Shown here piece after piece: positions 3,328-60,577 of a stretch of DNA of 64,000 nucleotides. Within the stretch, counting starts at the first letter, position 1. Every line of letters begins with the position of its first letter. Source of the stretch: Patescibacteria group bacterium (GTDB lineage: Bacteria > Patescibacteriota > Patescibacteriia > UBA9934 > GWF2-40-263). The DNA is taken from assembly GCA_041661745.1 (NCBI GenBank), contig JBAZTR010000002.1, positions 132,368 to 196,367 of the forward strand, written 5' to 3'. The position numbers were made by a program, and so were the translations under genes. The notes under the pieces were generated by a model. That model had not been told where the DNA came from. It saw only the letters and a program-made list of their open reading frames with translations, and did no database searches.

Positions 3328-3419
3328 AGCTTAGCTTGGCCCACCATTGAGAGTTTCCCGCCTTTGGCGGGACCCCGCCGAGGCCACCGAAGGCGGGGCG
3401 AGTCTCTCCTCGCCCACCA
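3328..3419 (+). repeat. tRNA-associated GC-rich double-hairpin element followed by a 20-nt duplicate of the tRNA-Leu 3' end
   Basis: TCCCGCCTTTGGCGGGACCCCGCC..GGCGGGGC at 3356-3398. Exact copy of GAGTCTCTCCTCGCCCACCA (tRNA 3308-3327) at 3400-3419. Confidence 0.75.
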
Positions 3420-8436: not shown

Positions 8437-8462
8437 AAATCGTCCTTGCGGACGTTTTTTTG
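8437..8462 (+). terminator. Rho-independent terminator after trpS
   Basis: CGTCCTTGCGGACG hairpin followed by TTTTTTT. Confidence 0.6.
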
Positions 8463-8463
8463 A

Positions 8464-8872
8464 CACAGAACCATCTGTAAGCCGAATTTTGTCTGCCCGA
8501 TCTTACGACCGAGGAGGCAATCATTTATCTAGATTAGACATTGCTGCCTAATTCATCAGCGAGCTACCAGTAAAACTTGCTCTTGTACCAGAAGGGGTTT
8601 TCCACGCGTCCATGTTGCCATGGAGCGAAAGGCGTTCGACGCCTTACTTTTCACCTTTCATCCCGCCAGAGGCGGGACTAGTATTGTCTCTGTGGCACTA
8701 ATCCCTAAGCTTTTGAACTTGAACAACAGAGATCTCTCAAGGTCGTCCAGATTCATTATGCTTGGTCGCCGTTAGCGACTTTCCTTTTCATCAGCCGTTG
8801 CCGACTGAAGGGTATTCGGACTTTCCTCAACTCACCTTTCGGCAAATCGCGATTGCCCGATGGTCTGTGCCC
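8464..8872 (-). ncRNA. rnpB: RNase P RNA (bacterial type) candidate
   Basis: About 410-nt ORF-free gap. The minus strand has GAGGAAAGTCCGAAT (P4 5' strand) near the 5' end and ACAGATGGTTCTGTG / CGGCTTA near the 3' end. The P1 strands pair (GCACAGACCATC with GATGGTTCTGTG). There is a GGTGAAAAGTAAGGCG-like element. Confidence 0.55.
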
Positions 8873-19732: not shown

Positions 19733-19965
19733 TTACCTTCCTCCTGTGACGATTATCGAATCGTTACTTTGGTCGAGCACAATATCATAATAAAACTTAA
19801 AGGTCAATACTAAACCAAAAACCGCCCGGTTTAATCCGAGCGGTTTTTTATTTTTAAGATTGGTGCGTCGAGCTGTGCTCGACTCGCACCATCGAGCTTA
19901 TCTGACTTCTATGCCAGGCAAAAGCTAAGCTTTTGCCATTGTAACAGAAATCGAGCTAAGCTCGA

Positions 19966-20042
19966 TGGTGCGCCCAAGACGATTCGAACGTCTGACTTCT
20001 TCCTTCGGAGGGAAGCGCTCTATCCAGCTGAGCTATGGGCGC
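19966..20042 (-). tRNA. tRNA-Arg (anticodon CCG), encoded CCA
   Basis: Reverse complement reads GCGCCCATAGCTCAGCTGGATAGAGCGCTTCCCTCCGAAGGAAG..TTCGAATCGTCTTGGGCGCACCA. Anticodon loop CTCCGAA. Confidence 0.8.
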
Positions 20043-20264
20043 ATATTATTTTGTTGCGCCTAGCGAAGCTGGCAATTTTTCCAGCTGCCCCGCCGACGGT
20101 GGCCTTTGGCGGGGTCCCGCCAAAACGAAGTGACGGCGGGAAGCTATGGGCGCATATTATTTTGTTGCGCCTAGCGAAGCTGGCAATTTTTCCAGCTGCC
20201 CCGCCGGCGGTGGCCTTTGGCGGGGTCCCGCCAAAACGAAGTGACGGCGGGAAGCTATGGGCGC
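20043..20264 (-). repeat. Two tandem 111-bp units, each made of a tRNA-associated GC-hairpin element plus a 12-nt copy of the tRNA-Arg 5' end
   Basis: AGCTATGGGCGC (reverse complement of the tRNA 5' end GCGCCCATAGCT) recurs at 20031, 20142 and 20253. The units differ by a single A/G. Confidence 0.85.
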
Positions 20265-20406
20265 ATATTGTTTTGCCCTCTTCTGTAAGCTCATACTGTT
20301 GAGCTACGAAGTCCACCGAAGCTCCGAAGCCTATAGATGAAGGCGAGGAGCGAAGGTGGGTGGGCGCATTAAACGAGAGCTTAAACCTCTTTTTTCAACA
20401 AGTCAA

Positions 20407-26439: not shown

Positions 26440-26694
26440 ACTGCCGTTCGCTACAATTCAATTTTTCAAGAAAAAAGGCTCATTCATCCAGTCTTTGGAG
26501 AATGGGTTTTAAAACTCCAGCGAACAACGATCATTCACAATTGAAGACCTGCAACAAACAAGCAAAAAGAATCAATTGTCAATTATACGATTGTAACGTC
26601 TATCAATGACAAATATTTAACTCCAAACAATAACGGAGCTAGTCATTTCTCAGAGTTCCTCCGAAGCCCGTAAGGGCAAAGGGGAATTTCTTCT

Positions 26695-28187
<1,493 letters not shown>

Positions 28188-28406
28188 AAAGGAATCCGAG
28201 GCTTAGGCCTCTATCCTATTAGGTCGACCAGTTAACCGAGTTCGCTCGGCTTAACAGGCAAGGATCAGTCTCGCAAGAGAATGATTTACAGACGTTACAA
28301 TCGTATAGAAGACAATTGCTTGAAGACACCTGAAATATGGTGTTTTTTGTTTATTTTTCCTCTTGACCTTATTGGGTTAATTTTCTATAATATCACTCGT
28401 CAATAC

Positions 28407-28488
28407 GGGCGTGTAGCTTCCCCCTTCGCCTTCGGGCTTCGGAGGACAGGCAGCTGGTCCAGCTTCGCTACACGTTCAAAAATAACCC
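28407..28488 (+). repeat. 12-nt duplicate of the tRNA-Ile 5' end (GGGCGTGTAGCT) followed by a 70-nt tRNA-associated element (TCCCCCTTCGCC..CAGCTGGTCCAGCTTCGCTAC..)
   Basis: Exact repeat of tRNA nucleotides 1-12 lies immediately upstream of the element, and the element abuts the intact tRNA. Confidence 0.8.
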
Positions 28489-28565
28489 GGGCGTGTAGCT
28501 CAGCTGGTTAGAGCGCAACACTGATAATGTTGAGGTCACAGGTTCGAGTCCTGTCACGCCCACCA
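28489..28565 (+). tRNA. tRNA-Ile (anticodon GAT), encoded CCA
   Basis: GGGCGTGTAGCTCAGCTGGTTAGAGCGCAACACTGATAATGTTGAGG..CACGCCCACCA. Confidence 0.85.
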
Positions 28566-28567
28566 GA

Positions 28568-28642
28568 GCCGAGGTAGCTCAGTGGTAGAGCAGAGGACTG
28601 AAAATCCTCGTGTCGCGAGTCCGATTCTCGCCCTCGGCACCA
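28568..28642 (+). tRNA. tRNA-Phe (anticodon GAA), encoded CCA
   Basis: GCCGAGGTAGCTCAGTGGTAGAGCAGAGGACTGAAAATCCTC..CCTCGGCACCA. Sits 2 nt after tRNA-Ile. Confidence 0.8.
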
Positions 28643-29770: not shown

Positions 29771-29868
29771 CAATAATAAAGCAACAAACAGCCTTGTTTA
29801 CCAGGGCTGTTTTAATATCTTTAAACAGTTGCCAAAAGATAAAGAAACTGTTATAGTTTCCCCCGTAT

Positions 29869-29947
29869 CGGGCCGTAGCTTCCCGCCTTTGGCGGGACCC
29901 CGCCAGAGGCGGGGCAGTAGTTTTTCTTCGCTACGGCTGATAAATGT
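29869..29947 (+). repeat. 12-nt duplicate of the tRNA-Pro 5' end (CGGGCCGTAGCT) plus a 67-nt GC double-hairpin element
   Basis: TCCCGCCTTTGGCGGGACCCCGCCAGAGGCGGGGCAG..CTTCGCTACGGCTGATAAATGT directly precedes the intact tRNA. Confidence 0.85.
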
Positions 29948-30024
<77 letters not shown>

Positions 30025-52669: not shown

Positions 52670-53995
52670 ATGCCGACCATCCAAACCAATCCCCAAAATA
52701 TGACATTTTTTGTACTCGGTTCTCACCCGGCCCTTTCGGTCGCAGAAATTGCGAACGTGCTTGGTGTGGAAATAAACCACTCACAATATTCAAAAGAAAT
52801 TTTATTGCTCGATGAAATCGGCACTTCACCCGAAGCCCTGCAAGGTCGTTTGGGTGGTACGATTAAAATCGGCGACATTGTCGGCGAAGTGAACCCCCCT
52901 TCGCCGGGCTTCGGCGGGGCAAGAAAAATTGATAAGGAAGAGGTCGCTGATCTTTTTGTTTCGCTTCTCGCCCACCCCTCACCCCTGCCCCTCTCCCTGA
53001 GGGAGAGGGGGGAGGAGGAGAGGGGTAACCGTGTTGTTTTCGGCATCAGCACCTATTCACTCGATGCCCACCGCGATCTTTCGACTGAAGTCAAACAAAT
53101 TGGCATGACCATAAAAACCAAGTTAAAAGAAGAAGGCCGAACCGCTCGTTTTGTTTCGACCAAAACTGCCGCCCTGCCAAGCGCGGCGGTGACCGGCGAA
53201 AAGCTTCTGGAAAACGGAGCTGAATTTGTAATCATTGTCTCTAAAGAAAAAATATACCTTGGTCAAACCCGCATTGTGCAGGATTTTCAAAGCTGGTCAG
53301 CCCGTGACTACGGTCGACCGCGTCGCGATGCCAAGTCCGGCATGTTGCCGCCAAAACTCGCGCGCATGATGATTAATTTGTCCGGCGCCAAAACCTCGGC
53401 TGCTTTGCTCGATCCGTTTTGTGGCTCGGGCACAGTGCTTATGGAAGCGGCGCTAATGGAATTTACCAATCTTATCGGCAGTGATATTTCCGAAAAAGCC
53501 ATTAAGGACACAACAATAAATTTAGATTGGTTAAATCAAAACGAAGAAGTTGATACTTCCGGAATTCGTCTTTTTAATAAACCAATCGAAACCCTGGCCG
53601 GAGACTTAAAAGAAAAAGTTGAGGTGATTGTCGGTGAAACCTATCTCGGTCCACCGCTCTCGGGTCGCGAAACACCGTTTCGACAAAAACAAATCATGGA
53701 CGAGCTGCTTGAACGCACCGCTTCCGGCCTGGCCGCCTTACTTCAACTTCTTAAAAAAGGTGGAACCGTGGTTTTGGCTCTCCCGGCTTTCTGTGCCCGC
53801 CATAGCCCGGCGACGGCGGGTCAGAATGGAAAAAATATTCAATATCTACCAACCAAAAAACTGGCCGAGGCCGTTGGTTTACAAATTGTTCCCTTCACCG
53901 GCGAACCAAACGAGGTTTCGCCTAATGGTGGGCTACTGTATGTTCGTGAAAATCAAAAAGTGGGAAGAGAAATTGTGAAAATGGTTCTTAAATAA
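52670..53995 (+). CDS. THUMP-type class I SAM-dependent RNA methyltransferase (RlmL/Trm11-like) with an in-frame palindromic insertion
   Basis: Motif I LLDPFCGSGTVLMEAA preceded by MLPPKLARMMINLSG. Low-complexity insert HPSPLPLSLRERGEEERGNR encoded by the palindrome at 52988-53010. Confidence 0.55.
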   Translation: MPTIQTNPQNMTFFVLGSHPALSVAEIANVLGVEINHSQYSKEILLLDEIGTSPEALQGRLGGTIKIGDIVGEVNPPSPGFGGARKIDKEEVADLFVSLLAHPSPLPLSLRERGEEERGNRVVFGISTYSLDAHRDLSTEVKQIGMTIKTKLKEEGRTARFVSTKTAALPSAAVTGEKLLENGAEFVIIVSKEKIYLGQTRIVQDFQSWSARDYGRPRRDAKSGMLPPKLARMMINLSGAKTSAALLDPFCGSGTVLMEAALMEFTNLIGSDISEKAIKDTTINLDWLNQNEEVDTSGIRLFNKPIETLAGDLKEKVEVIVGETYLGPPLSGRETPFRQKQIMDELLERTASGLAALLQLLKKGGTVVLALPAFCARHSPATAGQNGKNIQYLPTKKLAEAVGLQIVPFTGEPNEVSPNGGLLYVRENQKVGREIVKMVLK

Positions 53996-54112: not shown

Positions 54113-54180
54113 CGTGTCCGTCATAGCTCGCCTCGAGCGACGGCGGAATGCCACCTAGCCACCGCGATTCCAAAAACACT

Positions 54181-55101
54181 ATGCCAACTCAAATCGATAA
54201 ACTCTTAACTGACTTCCTTGAATATCTCGAAGTCGAACGCGGTCGCTCGGCCCGGACGATTAGAAATTACGATTTTTATTTGCGCCGGTTTATTAAATGG
54301 GCACGCCACCCTTCGCCGGCCGGCATTACCGATGATTTGATTCGCAAATTTCGCCTGTGGCTTAATCGTGCTGTGCCCGGACGACTTGATTCCACCATAA
54401 AAAAGAACACACAAAATTATCACCTTATTGCCTTGCGAGCTTTTCTTAAATACTTGGCTCGTCGCGATATAAAATCCATGTCCCCGGAAAAAATCGAGTT
54501 GGCTAAAGCCCCCTCGCGCATTGTTGCTTTTTTAGAAGCCGATGAATTGGATCGTGTTTTACAAATTCCCCTAGCCGCCGGCGAAGATTTAATCGGCTTG
54601 CGCGACAAAGCCATTTTGGAAATGCTTTTTTCGACCGGCCTACGCGTGTCCGAATTGGCTAATTTAAAAATCGATCAGGTAAATTTGAAACGCGACGAAT
54701 TCACTGTCCGCGGCAAAGGCGACAAACCGCGCGTTGTTTTTTTATCCGACTCGGCCAAAGAGTGGTTAAAAAAATATTTAAACAAACGCCACGATACTTC
54801 GCCTTACATGTTCATTTGCCACGACCGTGCCAAACGCGGCCGTGAGGATTCCGGTCCAATTACTCCGCGTTCAATCGAACGGATGGTTGAGTATTGTGCC
54901 AAAGCCGCCGGGGTCACCAAACGCATTACCCCGCACACCTTGCGCCACACTTTTGCCACTGACCTTTTAATGAACGGTGCCGATATTCGTTCAGTTCAAT
55001 CGCTCCTCGGCCACGCTTCCATCACCACCACCCAGGTGTATACTCATATTACGAATAAACAGCTAAAAGAAGTGCATAAAAAATTTCACGATAAGAAATA
55101 A
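54181..55101 (+). CDS. Tyrosine site-specific recombinase XerC/XerD
   Basis: HTLRHTFATDLLMNGADIRSVQSLLGHASITTTQVYTH catalytic box (R, H-x-x-R, Y). Confidence 0.85.
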   Translation: MPTQIDKLLTDFLEYLEVERGRSARTIRNYDFYLRRFIKWARHPSPAGITDDLIRKFRLWLNRAVPGRLDSTIKKNTQNYHLIALRAFLKYLARRDIKSMSPEKIELAKAPSRIVAFLEADELDRVLQIPLAAGEDLIGLRDKAILEMLFSTGLRVSELANLKIDQVNLKRDEFTVRGKGDKPRVVFLSDSAKEWLKKYLNKRHDTSPYMFICHDRAKRGREDSGPITPRSIERMVEYCAKAAGVTKRITPHTLRHTFATDLLMNGADIRSVQSLLGHASITTTQVYTHITNKQLKEVHKKFHDKK

Positions 55102-59215: not shown

Positions 59216-59396
59216 CTTTGAGAAAAATATGATTTACCAAATTACCTACATCGCTTCGGCGATCGGAACACTTGGGTTCATGCTCGGATTGAGCTAACCC
59301 AAAAAGCACGAGAGAAAAATCTCACGCGTGCTTCATGATTTATAACCTCACCCCACCCTCTCCTTAGTAAGGAGAGGGAGTTACAGATCACGAAGC
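59216..59396 (+). repeat. 180-bp leader repeat, copy A: mini-ORF + hairpins
   Basis: About 90% identical to 60578-60760. Contains the 22-aa ORF at 59229-59297, an imperfect hairpin AGCACGAGAG..CTCACGCGTGCT, and a perfect hairpin CCCTCTCCTTAGTAAGGAGAGGG. Confidence 0.85.
59229..59297 (+). CDS. 22-aa hydrophobic mini-ORF (MIYQITYIASAIGTLGFMLGLS), leader peptide or type-I-toxin-like
   Basis: Conserved in both copies of the leader repeat (paralog MIYYFVYVASAIGTLGVLLGLS). The differences are largely conservative hydrophobic substitutions. Confidence 0.4.
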   Translation: MIYQITYIASAIGTLGFMLGLS

Positions 59397-59466
59397 ATTC
59401 GAGGAGATCCACCTTCGCCGAGCTTCGGCGGACAAGGAGTCCACGATTGCGAATCCTGTCCATGTT

Positions 59467-59508: not shown

Positions 59509-60372
59509 ATGCGCTTCGTCATCAGCAGCAATCCCGTCGTCCTCGCCGCCGCCCTGCAGGACAAGCCGTCCGCAACGGTCGAGGCCGAGTACGGCAACGC
59601 CGTGGTCGAGGGCTCTGTCCTCACCATGGCGCACCACGGCCCCCGCGCCGGCCAGCCCGCGCCCTGTGCCTACGAGAACGGCTGCGCCGACGGGGTCGAG
59701 GTGGTGGGCCTGTCCCACTTCGATCTCGACACCCTCGGCGGGTGCGCGGCCATCCTCGGCCGCAAGGTCGAGGCCCCGACCTTCTGGCAGCTCGCCGAGT
59801 TCATCGACCTCAACGGGGCTCACAAGCTCAACGAGGGGATCGAGAAGACCGGCGCGACGCCCGACGACGTGGCCAAGCTCTTCGCCTTCTGGGCGTGGTC
59901 GCGCAACTTCCGCGTCTTCCCGAACCGCGACGGCAGCGTCAGCGACGTCACCGACAAGGTCATCGAGGGCTGCAACGTCCTCGACAAGATCATGAACGGC
60001 GATGCCGACCTGATGAAGGCCGGAACGGTCTACAAGGACGCGGAAGGGAAACTCAACGCCGACTCGTTCGTGGAGGCGAAGGACGGCGTGGTGGTGCGGG
60101 TCTCGTCCCAGTTCACCAACCACCTGTACAACACCCCCGACGGGAAGGCCCACGCCGCGGTCGTGGCCTACACCACGACGACCGGCGCAGTCACGGTCAG
60201 CTTCGCGGACTCCCCCAAGGGCAAGAACGCCCGCCAGATCGTGCAGGAGCTCTGGGGTGAGCTCGCCGGTGGCCACGCCGGAATCGCCGGCAGCCCCCGC
60301 GACCGTCGCATGTCCCTCATCGACCTCACCGCGGCGGTCGAGGCCCTCCGCGCCGCGCTCGCCGGCAAGTAG
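59509..60372 (+). CDS. Hypothetical protein (about 68% GC, foreign composition)
   Basis: ORF 59497..60372 with ATG at 59509 behind a GGAGG ribosome-binding site. Strong GC3 bias. No motif recognised. Confidence 0.55.
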   Translation: MRFVISSNPVVLAAALQDKPSATVEAEYGNAVVEGSVLTMAHHGPRAGQPAPCAYENGCADGVEVVGLSHFDLDTLGGCAAILGRKVEAPTFWQLAEFIDLNGAHKLNEGIEKTGATPDDVAKLFAFWAWSRNFRVFPNRDGSVSDVTDKVIEGCNVLDKIMNGDADLMKAGTVYKDAEGKLNADSFVEAKDGVVVRVSSQFTNHLYNTPDGKAHAAVVAYTTTTGAVTVSFADSPKGKNARQIVQELWGELAGGHAGIAGSPRDRRMSLIDLTAAVEALRAALAGK

Positions 60373-60577
60373 TCACATAGGTTTCTTTCCCAATTTCTTC
60401 TCCTTAGGGCGAAAAAAGTAAATTGGCCATGTGTGCTTTCGAACTCGAGCACGCGTGGAACCGTAGAGTTCAAAAGGAAAGTCGTCTCCCTTTAAGTAGA
60501 CGGCAAAAACAATGCACTCGATTGGCGGATTCACTCCCCGCCTCTTCGACTAAACTCTTGAATTTTCTTTCGAGGGC

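What the first reader, a model, noticed from the sequence alone, without database searches (positions are those of the whole stretch)
19966..20264. tRNA-Arg followed by two tandem 111-bp units, each ending in a copy of the first 12 nt of the tRNA
AGCTATGGGCGC (the tRNA 5' end, minus strand) occurs three times with an exact 111-bp period at 20031, 20142 and 20253. Each unit holds a GC double hairpin (GGCGGGGTCCCGCCAAA, the reverse complement of the tRNA-Pro/Leu element core) and a CAGCTGG..CCAGCTTCGCTAG tail. The units differ by one nucleotide. Either the element inserted twice in succession at its own regenerated target, or the element plus its target-site duplication was amplified. Both fit an active, recently mobile element. 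The supplied ORFs 20020..20316 and 20051..20302 are just translations of this repeat.
Basis: seen in the sequence. Interest (0 to 1): 0.8.

Follow-up and report, generated by a model that had tools for sequence, protein, structure and literature searches.

The report
Mobile GC hairpin in tRNA-Arg leader
Just upstream of a tRNA-Arg gene in an uncultured Patescibacteria (Uhrbacteria-like) genome lie two tandem 111-bp copies of a broken-off start of that same tRNA. Each copy is split by a 54-base GC-rich double hairpin from an apparently undescribed family of tiny insertion elements, which also sits in other tRNA genes, in terminator loops and in frame inside protein genes of several uncultured phyla.

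Summary
In detail: tRNA-Arg(CCG) at 19966-20042 (minus strand) is followed by a 111-bp x 2.2 tandem repeat. The 12-mer occurs three times and the two units differ by 1 nt.

The 12-mer is not a target-site duplication. Each unit reads: tRNA nt 1-12, then a 54-nt double hairpin 'E' (T-CCCGCC-N13-GGCGGG-A-C-CCCGCC-N13-GGCGGG-G), then tRNA nt 13-19, then an imperfect inverted copy of nt 1-19, then 13 nt of leader. E therefore splits a partial copy of the tRNA exactly at 12|13, with no duplication.

The same layout occurs at tRNA-Pro and tRNA-Ile, and in mirror image at tRNA-Leu. A third, older unit lies further upstream of tRNA-Arg.

E is a multi-copy family (58 copies in 53 loci) in Patescibacteria, Omnitrophota and other metagenome-assembled genomes. 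About a quarter of copies lie in or beside tRNA or tmRNA genes, nearly always in sense orientation. Others sit in hairpin loops or in frame in protein genes.

A relative has the same tRNA-Arg without units. An independent assembly contains a one-unit path.

Best reading: a small palindromic insertion element occupies a regenerated tRNA 5' end, and the unit then underwent a recent, probably polymorphic, tandem duplication. The mobilising enzyme and the regeneration step remain unknown.

The parts
19966..20042 (-). Intact tRNA-Arg(CCG), the functional gene.
   Evidence: ARAGORN; Rfam RF00005, 67.1 bits.
20043..20153 (-). Proximal 111-bp unit. In the sense direction it reads: pseudo tRNA nt 1-12 (20142-20153), E (20088-20141), tRNA nt 13-19 stub (20081-20087), loop aaaaattg (20073-20080), imperfect inverted copy of nt 1-19 CCAGCTTCGCTAGGCGC (20056-20072), leader aacaaaataatat (20043-20055).
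   Evidence: Sequence read directly; TRF. As RNA it folds into a 4-way junction, -53.4 kcal/mol, z = -4.9.
20154..20264 (-). Distal 111-bp unit with the same parts (pseudo nt 1-12 at 20253-20264; E at 20199-20252). It differs from the proximal unit by 1 nt in the second E loop (GCC versus GTC).
20088..20141 (-). E element, proximal copy: 54-nt double GC hairpin TCCCGCC-N13-GGCGGGA / CCCCGCC-N13-GGCGGGG.
   Evidence: Pattern matches. Boundaries fixed by comparison with the intact tRNA (AGCT|CAGCTGG).
20199..20252 (-). E element, distal copy.
20265..20275 (-). Leader remnant caaaacaatat, which extends the direct repeat to 23 nt (1 mismatch).
   Evidence: (family D13).
20288..20367 (-). Older, degenerate unit 0: GCGCCCA (tRNA nt 1-7, 20361-20367), a 54-nt 'F'-type hairpin insert (20307-20360), TAGCTCA (nt 8-14, 20300-20306), then acagta and the inverted TGAGCT (20288-20293).
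   Evidence: Sequence. The F insert folds as a hairpin, z = -3.4. F-family copies elsewhere in the window.
20378..20406 (-). Weak candidate promoter TTGACT-17-TAAGCT, directly after the stop codon of the methyltransferase ORF and upstream of all three units.
   Evidence: Read from the sequence; it falls below the threshold of the scan. Inference only.
19862..19965 (-). 3' trailer: palindromes centred on AGCTTAGCT, a direct copy of tRNA nt 43-52 (19901-19910), and a 16-nt inverted copy of the tRNA 3' end plus trailer (19885-19900).
   Evidence: DNA fold of 19850-19990: z = -8.8.
29869..29947 (+). Sister locus at tRNA-Pro: pseudo nt 1-12 (29869-29880), short E of 34 nt (29881-29914), CAGT stub, inverted GCTACGGCTG (29930-29939), spacer, then tRNA-Pro at 29948. 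A promoter-like site TTGCCA-17-TATAGT lies at 29829-29857, upstream of the unit.
28407..28488 (+). Sister locus at tRNA-Ile: pseudo nt 1-12 (28407-28418), 32-nt F-type hairpin in the same 12|13 slot (28419-28450), stub (28451-28458), inverted copy (28459-28474), spacer. A promoter-like site TTGACC-17-TATAAT lies at 28363-28391.
3328..3419 (+). Mirror-image sister locus downstream of tRNA-Leu: palindrome built on the CCA end, GAGAGTT stub (3349-3355), E of 43 nt (3356-3398) in the T loop of a 3' fragment, then CGAGTCTCTCCTCGCCCACCA (3399-3419).

Best explanation
E is a small, non-autonomous, GC-rich double-hairpin insertion element. It is a palindromic selfish-DNA module in the broad sense of REP, RPE and mitochondrial double-hairpin elements. 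It inserts without target duplication, preferentially into single-stranded loops of hairpin-forming sequences: the tRNA D arm, anticodon arm and T loop, terminator loops, and in frame in coding DNA.

At tRNA-Arg it sits at position 12|13 of a promoter-proximal fragment of the gene. Downstream of it the 5' end of the tRNA has been regenerated, giving a direct-inverted-direct arrangement of the first 19 nt, so an intact tRNA remains.

The split fragment, E and the fold-back now form part of the transcribed 5' leader. That leader would be removed when RNase P cuts at the true 5' end.

The second 111-bp unit arose later. It came from unequal recombination or replication slippage between the 23-nt direct repeats that flank a single unit, and its copy number probably still varies in the population. 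An older event of the same kind, with an F-type hairpin at 7|8, left unit 0 further upstream.

Shown: the anatomy, the family and its distribution, the exact insertion boundaries, and the unit-free state in a relative. Suggested but not shown: the one-unit path. Inferred: mobility, transcription and processing of the leader, how the tRNA end is regenerated (most likely template switching at the hairpin during replication or repair), and which enzyme moves E.
For: Anatomy.

Family: 58 copies in 53 loci plus the window, in Patescibacteria/Uhrbacteria, Omnitrophota, 'Gammaproteobacteria' MAGs, Saccharibacteria and Planctomycetia.

Exact boundaries and no duplication: shown by alignment to the intact tRNAs at 12|13, 21|22, 30|31, the anticodon loop and the T loop.

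Flank statistics: position -1 is T in 55 of 56 copies and position +1 is C or G in 49 of 56. Short flanking stems of 5 bp or more occur 9 times against 1.6 expected.

Orientation: sense relative to the tRNA in 17 of 19 unbiased cases. Flanking genes are co-oriented with E 76 to 33.

Coding insertions: in-frame copies in ManC-like and RlmN-like genes with Pfam domains on both sides, and hairpin modules in frame in window ORF 52670-53995.

Recurrence: the same tRNA is hit at different sites in relatives. Pro is hit in the D arm here but in the T loop in L036. Leu carries a 3' fragment here but an upstream full copy in L034. This indicates repeated independent events.

Unit-free state: the syntenic relative L068 has the same tRNA-Arg type with a promoter, a 15-nt leader and no units.

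Promoters: promoter-like sites lie upstream of the units at Ile, Pro and Lys.

Tandem step: the units are 99% identical including the local filler. Two-unit arrays also occur at tRNA-Lys in L017, L040 and L060. Independent assembly ERZ27249449 has a contig that joins the GCC-variant unit directly to the tRNA.
Against: No transposase, recombinase or other partner gene was found near any copy, and no copy occurs in viral contigs. Mobility is therefore inferred from distribution, not observed.

No filled/empty pair of otherwise identical alleles was obtained. L068 has no units, but its tRNA is inverted relative to its neighbours.

The coupling between insertion and regeneration of the tRNA is unexplained. 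Simple insertions without duplication exist (L033, L008, L048).

In L034, L022 and L059 the split copy and the intact copy are different alleles. That looks like gene replacement rather than self-regeneration.

E is nearly invariant among the tRNA-Lys loci while the flanks diverge, which could also mean a function. The stems are invariant partly by construction, because the search pattern required them.

The copy number in the window cannot be checked without reads. The one-unit path could be a de Bruijn graph artefact.
Confidence: 0.6

Rival explanations
1. A roughly 99-nt element, with the 12-nt tRNA start as its target-site duplication or regenerated target, inserted twice in succession upstream of the tRNA.
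For: There are three exact 12-mers at a 111-bp period. The same core lies beside other tRNAs. Nested older and younger units (unit 0, then units 1 and 2) do suggest repeated hits on a regenerated tRNA 5' end.
Against: The non-hairpin part of the unit is tRNA-Arg-specific: nt 13-19 followed by an inverted copy of nt 1-19. At Pro, Ile and Lys it is replaced by the corresponding local tRNA sequence, so it cannot have arrived from elsewhere. The repeat also includes 11 nt of leader. E itself has exact boundaries and no duplication. Two independent insertions would not reproduce the identical local filler with only 1 mismatch.
Confidence: 0.07
2. A functional structured leader. The cloverleaf-like unit is a cis-acting RNA, for example a processing, stability, attenuation or protein-binding element for pre-tRNA. 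E is its conserved protein- or RNA-binding module, and the duplication merely changes dosage.
For: The units lie between promoter-like sites and the tRNA. The unit folds into a stable 4-way junction, z = -4.9. E is almost invariant across six tRNA-Lys loci while the flanks diverge. E is biased towards sense orientation. Four of the six tRNAs in the window carry a unit. The E hairpin followed by a T-rich run before tRNA-Pro scores as terminator-like.
Against: The same module sits in 3' tRNA fragments, inside complete but disabled tRNA copies, in frame in proteins and in unrelated intergenic hairpins. E and F exchange in the same slot: tRNA-Ile has F in the window and E in L066, and the first tRNA-Lys unit carries F. 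The pseudo-fragments accumulate changes that the inverted copy does not compensate (L063, L064, L066). The relative L068 expresses the same tRNA type with a plain 15-nt leader. There is no Rfam match.
Confidence: 0.15
3. Assembly artefact. The true locus has one unit, or some other number, and the second copy comes from misassembly of a short tandem repeat.
For: Two independent short-read assemblies break their contigs exactly at this repeat. One contig shows a one-unit path.
Against: The two units differ by a SNP, and the other assembly also carries it in the same order: L056 has a partial unit, then the GTC unit, then the tRNA. The 245-bp array is short relative to paired reads. Comparable two-unit arrays were assembled independently at tRNA-Lys in three other genomes.
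Confidence: 0.1
4. Site-specific integration of a small circle. A roughly 111-nt circular molecule (X-E-Y) is integrated by a recombinase at the tRNA 5' region, as integrative elements regenerate tRNA ends, and multimers give the tandem array.
For: X-E-Y-X or X-Y-E-X layouts, with one repeat copy abutting E, are common. They include composite units that recur at several loci in one Omnitrophota genome. A circularised E would have a junction, GGCGGGG·TCCCGCC, that is the exact reverse complement of its centre. An XerD-like recombinase ORF lies in the window at 54148-55101.
Against: The unit carries local tRNA sequence. No integrase lies next to any copy. 111 bp is too short for a double-stranded circle. 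Insertion sites within tRNAs vary (12|13, 21|22, 30|31, 55|56, 56|57).
Confidence: 0.06
5. Intron-like intervening sequence. E is removed from tRNA transcripts, so E-bearing copies are functional genes.
For: L010 holds a complete tRNA-Thr(CGU) whose only defects are two E insertions, one in the D loop and one in the T loop, with no intact copy beside it. [quoted passage not shown]
Against: In this window the E-bearing pieces are truncated fragments (19 nt or 28 nt) and cannot yield a tRNA. E has no group I or group II fold and no Rfam match. L059's E-bearing tRNA-Val copy has a broken acceptor stem.
Confidence: 0.03

Closest known systems
Rickettsia palindromic elements (RPE) and other coding palindromes
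   Same: Short palindromic, hairpin-forming, non-autonomous repeats with no known transposase. They are found in intergenic DNA, in RNA genes, and in frame inside protein-coding genes whose products stay intact. Here, the long E is exactly 54 nt (18 codons), and it is embedded in ManC-like and RlmN-like genes and in window ORF 52670-53995.
   Different: From my own knowledge, RPEs are about 100-150 bp, AT-rich and confined to Rickettsia. E is 34-55 nt and extremely GC-rich. It consists of two abutting 7-bp-stem hairpins, occurs in several phyla, and has a strong association with tRNA genes. No sequence relationship was tested.
REP / BIME / REPIN elements mobilised by RAYT (IS200/IS605-like HUH) transposases, and IS200/IS605-derived palindrome-associated elements
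   Same: Small GC-rich extragenic hairpins in many copies. There is no target-site duplication. Orientation is strand-biased. The two hairpins point the same way, as do the left-end and right-end hairpins of IS200/IS605. Insertion into single-stranded DNA would explain the preference for loops.
   Different: E has no GTAG or CGTC tag (PMC3733652 describes those tags). Its ends lie at the feet of the hairpins rather than 10-20 nt away. There is no conserved tetranucleotide target, only a weak T-N|C/G-A preference. No RAYT or TnpA gene was found near any copy. REPs are not reported inside tRNA genes or coding frames.
Mitochondrial double-hairpin elements and GC clusters (Allomyces and other fungi, yeast)
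   Same: Tiny (about 30-80 nt) GC-rich double hairpins scattered in an AT-richer genome, near tRNA genes and in variable regions. Mobility is inferred from polymorphism, and the enzyme is unknown (papers listed; details from my own knowledge).
   Different: Those are organellar and unrelated in sequence. They are not reported to be associated with regenerated partial tRNA copies or with in-frame coding insertions of a fixed 54-nt length.
Integrative elements that target tRNA genes and regenerate the tRNA end (att duplications)
   Same: The result is an intact tRNA plus a displaced partial copy of the same tRNA as a direct repeat. The T loop and anticodon loop are favoured sublocations (my own knowledge: Williams 2002).
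   Different: Here the 'island' is 72-99 nt with no integrase. The displaced piece is often the 5' end together with the promoter. The filler is an inverted copy of the tRNA itself.
Group I introns in Patescibacteria tRNA genes
   Same: They interrupt tRNA genes in the same phylum and hide them from tRNA finders (10.1101/2025.07.03.662931). L010's tRNA-Thr is likewise missed by ARAGORN.
   Different: Those introns are ribozymes of hundreds of nt at 35/36 and are shown to splice. E is 34-55 nt, has no ribozyme fold, and in this window lies in truncated fragments.

Membership tests
MITE (miniature inverted-repeat transposable element) | Target-site duplication flanking the element | tested here: not met
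   Alignment of the split fragments to intact tRNAs gives exact junctions with nothing duplicated: AGCT|[E]|CAG, GTT|[E]|CGAG, TTA|[E]|GAG.
MITE (miniature inverted-repeat transposable element) | Terminal inverted repeats matching those of a parent IS that encodes a transposase | tested here: inconclusive
   The ends TCCCGCC...GGCGGGG are inverted repeats, but only as part of a full palindrome. No parent IS was found in the window or in 66 loci.
REP / REPIN (RAYT-mobilised) | Conserved GTAG or CGTC tetranucleotide at one end of the palindrome | tested here: not met
   The 5' end is T-CCCGCC in 55 of 56 copies, and no GTAG or CGTC is present. Tag definition taken from PMC3733652.
REP / REPIN (RAYT-mobilised) | A RAYT (HUH Y1) gene in the genome, typically flanked by REPs | not testable with these tools
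   Only 64 kb of this genome and windows of 8 kb or less around other copies were available. None of the ORFs scanned was a transposase.
IS200/IS605-derived palindrome-associated element | Insertion 3' of a fixed tetra- or pentanucleotide, with no duplication and with strand specificity | tested here: inconclusive
   No duplication: met. Strand bias: met (17 of 19 sense to tRNAs; 76 to 33 relative to flanking genes). A fixed target is not seen: T at -3 in 46 of 56 copies, and +1 is C or G.
Rickettsia palindromic element-like coding palindrome | In-frame insertion into protein-coding genes that keep their domains | tested here: met
   In L019 the NTP_transferase domain spans the insert. In L039 the radical SAM domain continues after it. 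The shared peptide is LPPSLGFGGTPPKASVGG. In the window, ORF 52670-53995 carries PPSPGFGGAR.
Rickettsia palindromic element-like coding palindrome | Sequence homology to RPE families | not tested
Size and composition differ.
tRNA-integrating genomic island (att duplication) | Integrase gene and cargo lying between direct repeats of a tRNA end | tested here: not met
   Only 72-99 nt lie between the repeats, with no ORF.
Group I intron in tRNA | Group I ribozyme fold and an uninterrupted tRNA after removal | tested here: not met
   No Rfam intron match at the gathering threshold or at E-value <= 5. The fragments in the window are truncated.
Simple tandem duplication (for the second 111-bp unit) | Head-to-tail copies identical in all parts, bounded by a pre-existing direct repeat, with variable copy number | tested here: met
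   99% identity over 111 bp. A 23-nt bounding repeat. A one-unit path in ERZ27249449. One-unit and two-unit states at tRNA-Lys.

The most novel reading that the evidence does not exclude
E and F are members of an undescribed class of structure-targeting mobile hairpins. They invade the arms of tRNA genes, probably as single-stranded DNA at loops. Their insertion is mechanistically coupled to a fold-back, templated regeneration of the interrupted gene end. Successive events would then stack fossil 'split tRNA starts' into the transcribed leader: unit 0, then unit 1, then unit 2. In this reading tRNA genes of Patescibacteria and neighbouring phyla are in continuous turnover driven by these elements, and some E-bearing full-length tRNAs (L010) may even be rescued at the RNA level.
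Probability: 0.2. Interest if true: 0.85.

Novelty: new variant of a known kind. Interest (0 to 1): 0.62.

Why it matters
If the reading holds, it adds a new and very small type of selfish DNA to bacteria that are thought to have streamlined genomes.

It would explain why tRNA loci in Candidate Phyla Radiation (CPR, i.e. Patescibacteria) genomes are littered with partial tRNA copies and break short-read assemblies.

It warns annotators in two ways. tRNA finders miss genes that carry these hairpins. Gene callers translate the hairpins, either as spurious ORFs or as real 18-residue inserts in enzymes.

It also offers a natural system for studying how an essential single-copy gene survives insertion by being regenerated next to the insert. 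The exact 54-nt module, with no duplication and a preference for hairpin loops, points to a single-strand or structure-specific insertion machinery that has not been identified.

Tried and rejected
1. Rfam, at gathering thresholds and at E-value <= 5: no family matches the units.

2. The RNase P RNA hairpin CCCGCCUCUGGCGGG at 8662-8676 looked like a fourth copy. It aligns to a consensus helix of the bacterial RNase P class A model, so it is native and was rejected as an element copy.

3. A protein search with the shared inserted peptide gave no hit (one search failed on length). In-frame copies with that composite are therefore rare or absent in the big protein collection.

4. Viral contigs: no E copy, so no evidence for a phage vector.

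5. The search for a partner enzyme found nothing. An all-against-all comparison of ORFs within 1.5 kb of E across loci found only the translated repeat itself and housekeeping genes (Hsp20, ABC ATPase). ORFs in the GC-rich 57-64 kb part of the window gave only MoxR and TrmB matches.

6. The 'filler DNA at a duplication junction' model was rejected, because E lies inside one copy of the duplicated segment and not at the junction.

7. Flip-flop inversion was rejected as the explanation for exchangeable loop sequences. The asymmetric positions (5' T, central AC, 3' G) do not invert together with the loops.

8. TRF on all loci: only the window shows a clean tandem array with a period of 40 nt or more that contains E. 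The two-unit tRNA-Lys arrays are too diverged for TRF.

9. Seven literature searches found no description of this element or of the split-tRNA leader architecture.
Full report
**1. The observation**

ARAGORN and Rfam place tRNA-Arg(CCG) at 19966-20042 on the minus strand. Tandem Repeats Finder reports a 111-bp period, 2.2 copies and 98% matches at 20031-20275. AGCTATGGGCGC occurs exactly three times, 111 bp apart, against 0.16 expected. The two full units differ at one base. The GC core recurs beside tRNA-Leu and tRNA-Pro: 7 matches against 0.25 expected. The hairpin pattern gives 10 matches against 0.07 expected.

**2. Anatomy on the tRNA sense strand**

Each unit reads as follows:
- GCGCCCATAGCT, which is tRNA nt 1-12.
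- T-CCCGCC-N13-GGCGGG-A-C-CCCGCC-N13-GGCGGG-G, a 54-nt double hairpin that I call E.
- CAGCTGG, which is tRNA nt 13-19.
- aaaaattg, a loop.
- CCAGCTTCGCTAGGCGC, an imperfect inverted copy of nt 1-19.
- aacaaaataatat, the leader.

After the two units comes the real tRNA. The sequences on either side of E join to give tRNA nt 1-19 exactly. So E interrupts a partial copy of the tRNA between nt 12 and 13, and nothing is duplicated at its ends. As RNA, a unit folds into a four-way junction (a closing stem, the two E hairpins and a third hairpin) at -53.4 kcal/mol, z = -4.9.

**3. The same architecture elsewhere in the window**

- tRNA-Pro: CGGGCCGTAGCT | short E (34 nt) | CAGT.. ..GCTACGGCTG, then a spacer and the tRNA.
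- tRNA-Ile: GGGCGTGTAGCT | a different 32-nt hairpin that I call F | CAGCTGGT CCAGCTtcGCTACACG, then a spacer and the tRNA.
- tRNA-Leu is the mirror image. The intact tRNA comes first, then a palindrome built on its CCA end, then GAGAGTT | E | CGAGTCTCTCCTCGCCCACCA. That last piece is a 3' fragment with E in the T loop.
- Upstream of the two Arg units lies an older unit 0: GCGCCCA | 54-nt F-type hairpin | TAGCTCA acagta TGAGCT.

Four of the six tRNAs in the window therefore carry such units.

Promoter-like sites lie upstream of the units, not between unit and tRNA. These are TTGACC-17-TATAAT for Ile (11 of 12 consensus positions) and TTGCCA-17-TATAGT for Pro. For Arg there is only a weak TTGACT-17-TAAGCT, read by eye. 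I infer that the units are transcribed as 5' leader.

**4. E is a dispersed family**

One scan of species-representative genomes, using the two-hairpin pattern, returned 53 loci. With the window this makes 58 copies. The hosts are Patescibacteria/Uhrbacteria, Omnitrophota, several 'Gammaproteobacteria' MAGs, Saccharibacteria and Planctomycetia, plus two GC-rich genomes that are probably chance matches. The stems are invariant by construction of the pattern. The following features are not.

- Position -1 is T in 55 of 56 copies, and +1 is C or G in 49 of 56.
- 31 of 56 copies are exactly 54 nt.
- Short complementary flanks of 5 bp or more are enriched, 9 against 1.6 expected. E therefore tends to sit in the loop of a pre-existing hairpin, as in the terminator of L033 (GACCCtt[E]cGGGGTCTTTTTT).
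- About a quarter of the copies lie in or beside tRNA or tmRNA genes, although such regions make up only a few percent of a genome.
- 17 of 19 tRNA-associated copies are in sense orientation. Flanking genes are co-oriented with E 76 to 33.

A metagenome scan for the junction AGCT|E|CAG gave nine more loci:
- Four tRNA-Lys loci, with one or two units.
- tRNA-Arg(ACG), found twice.
- tRNA-Ile carrying E where the window has F.
- A Thr-like fragment.
- A full-length but decayed tRNA-Val paralogue carrying E, next to an intact tRNA-Val.

L010 holds a complete tRNA-Thr(CGU) interrupted by two E copies, one in the D loop and one in the T loop. There is no intact copy beside it, and ARAGORN misses it.

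**5. E behaves like selfish coding-tolerant DNA**

In one Uhrbacteria genome and a relative, a composite containing E is inserted in frame into unrelated genes. The only similarity between these genes is the peptide LHHSPLREGFEGQTTTLPPSLGFGGTPPKASVGGASLHH. In the ManC-like protein the NTP_transferase domain spans the insert. In the RlmN-like protein the radical SAM domain continues after it. In this window, ORF 52670-53995 carries related hairpin modules in frame (PPSPGFGGAR and ARHSPATAGQ). At least ten F-type hairpins occur in the window.

**6. The units are gains, and the events recur**

Three neighbourhoods of the adjacent methyltransferase gene were compared.
- In the syntenic relative L068 (neighbouring methyltransferase 68% identical) the same tRNA-Arg type has a TTGACC-17-TACAAT promoter, a 15-nt leader and no unit. 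The tRNA is inverted relative to its neighbours.
- In L067 (76% identical) an unrelated tRNA-Arg(CCG) allele occupies the site, again without units.
- In L069 (50% identical) there is no tRNA at the site.

tRNA-Pro is hit in the D arm here but in the T loop in L036. tRNA-Leu has a 3' fragment here, an upstream near-full copy of a different allele in L034, and no unit in L012.

These patterns fit repeated independent events better than an inherited functional leader. The pseudo-fragments at tRNA-Lys and tRNA-Ile also accumulate substitutions that the inverted copy does not compensate.

**7. The tandem step**

The two Arg units share every locally derived part and differ by one base. A 23-nt direct repeat, made of 11 nt of leader plus tRNA nt 1-12, bounds a single unit. 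That repeat is the natural substrate for unequal recombination or slippage.

In the independent assembly ERZ27249449, one contig ends with the distal flank, then the GCC-variant unit, then the start of the tRNA. This is a one-unit path. Another contig begins with a partial unit, then the GTC-variant unit, then the tRNA. The variant base and the tRNA junction are only 77 nt apart. The one-unit junction is therefore most simply a real allele, although a graph artefact cannot be excluded without reads.

Two-unit arrays also exist at tRNA-Lys in three other genomes. There the first unit carries F, or F plus the second E hairpin, instead of E.

**8. Mechanism: what is shown and what is inferred**

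Shown:
- The exact, duplication-free boundaries of E.
- Its family character, loop preference, sense bias and tolerance in coding frames.
- The direct (with E), inverted (without E), direct (without E) layout at Arg, Pro, Ile and Lys.
- The unit-free state in a relative.

Suggested but not shown: the one-unit path in the second assembly.

Inferred:
- E is mobile, probably as a structure-specific or single-strand-specific insertion. The two same-direction hairpins, the absence of a duplication and the strand bias most resemble HUH-type (IS200/IS605 or RAYT) systems, but no such gene was found.
- In essential tRNAs, only events in which the interrupted end is regenerated survive.
- The direct-inverted-direct pattern is the signature expected from fold-back template switching at a strong hairpin during replication or repair.
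- The units are removed from the pre-tRNA by RNase P.

Unexplained:
- The regeneration step itself.
- The constant TC/TT, instead of the complementary GA, opposite the insertion point in every inverted copy.
- The cases where the intact neighbour is a different allele (L034, L022, L059).
- The exchangeability of hairpin modules and loops between copies.

**9. Comparison with known systems**

The closest analogues are Rickettsia palindromic elements, REP/REPIN elements with their RAYT partners, IS200/IS605-derived palindromic mini-elements, mitochondrial double-hairpin elements and GC clusters, and integrative elements that regenerate tRNA ends.

E fails the defining tests for a MITE (no target duplication), for REP (no GTAG or CGTC tag), for a tRNA-integrating island (no integrase or cargo) and for a group I intron (no ribozyme fold). 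It meets the 'in-frame coding palindrome' feature of RPEs.

Seven literature searches found no description of this element or of split-tRNA leaders in CPR bacteria. The nearest report concerns group I introns at 35/36 in Patescibacteria tRNAs.

**10. Verdict**

The feature is real. The finding is best filed as a new variant of small palindromic insertion elements, caught in an unusual relationship with tRNA genes, followed by a recent local tandem duplication. Interest is moderate to high. The anatomy and distribution are solid, while mobility, the enzyme and the regeneration mechanism remain inferences.

Noticed in passing
window 20288-20367 (-): A third, older unit lies upstream of the two tandem units. 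It consists of tRNA-Arg nt 1-7, a 54-nt F-type hairpin, nt 8-14, and a short inverted copy. The length of 54 nt equals that of the long E form.
   Followed up: partly
window 28363-28488 (+): tRNA-Ile has the same split-start architecture, but with a 32-nt F-type hairpin in the 12|13 slot. A near-consensus promoter, TTGACC-17-TATAAT, lies upstream of the unit. Metagenome locus L066 has E in the same slot of tRNA-Ile.
   Followed up: yes
window 19862-19965 (-), 3328-3342 (+): The tRNA 3' trailers are palindromes built on the tRNA's own CCA end and centred on AGCTTAGCT. Downstream of tRNA-Arg there is also a 16-nt inverted copy of the tRNA 3' end and a direct copy of nt 43-52 (fold z = -8.8). L012 and L068 have similar palindromes that include the CCA end.
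   Followed up: partly
window 52670-53995 (+): A 441-aa methyltransferase-like ORF carries GC hairpin modules in frame: PPSPGFGGAR at about 52895 and ARHSPATAGQ at about 53796. It also contains a low-complexity stretch, HPSPLPLSLRERGEEERG.
   Followed up: partly
window 54138-55101: An XerD-like tyrosine recombinase ORF (54148-55101) is immediately preceded by an F/H1-like hairpin. No link to E mobility was established.
   Followed up: no
window 26689-28642: The 16S rRNA gene is followed by tRNA-Ile and tRNA-Phe, and no 23S gene appears in the remaining 36 kb, so the rRNA genes are unlinked. The 16S-tRNA spacer contains the tRNA-Ile unit.
   Followed up: no
window 8461-8868 (-): The RNase P RNA (class A) is 408 nt long, with a 47-nt expansion in one helix. 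A native consensus hairpin, CCCGCCUCUGGCGGG, has the same stem sequence as the E hairpins.
   Followed up: partly
window 29881-29924 (+): The short E before tRNA-Pro, followed by a T-rich run, scores as terminator-like. It lies between the promoter-like site and the tRNA, so it could act as an attenuator or pause site.
   Followed up: no
window 59223-59401 and 60588-60766; 60000-64000: There is a 179-nt direct repeat pair (88% identical). The last 4 kb has 60-63% GC against about 45% elsewhere. ORFs there had no Pfam match except a MoxR-type AAA ATPase. This may be foreign DNA.
   Followed up: partly
L010 6770-6940: A complete tRNA-Thr(CGU) is interrupted by two E copies (D loop 21|22 and T loop 56|57). 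No intact copy lies beside it, and ARAGORN does not detect it.
   Followed up: partly
L019 853-2064, L039 772-2004, L029, L013, L022: A 117-nt composite (direct repeat, F hairpin, E, direct repeat) is inserted in frame into unrelated genes, including ManC-like, RlmN-like and SurA-like genes. The composite has the same terminal direct repeats at every locus.
   Followed up: yes
L004, L024, L038, L042, L044, L052 (Omnitrophota MEGAHIT-group-1.488): E is embedded in a recurring composite of about 150 nt. A 42-nt repeat (CTTCGGCACGCTCGAATATTACGGTGCCTCGCAAAGACGAGG) lies on both sides of E. In L052 the composite starts a second round, making a partial tandem array with a period of about 109 nt.
   Followed up: partly
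L034 4900-5150; L022 1900-2100; L059: The E-split full-length tRNA copy and the intact neighbour are different alleles with compensated stem differences. This suggests tRNA gene replacement rather than self-duplication.
   Followed up: partly
L067 1623-2789; L069 3890-5005: In relatives, the neighbourhood of the orthologous methyltransferase gene holds an IS256-type transposase (L067) or an RVT_1 reverse transcriptase (L069). This locus attracts mobile DNA.
   Followed up: no
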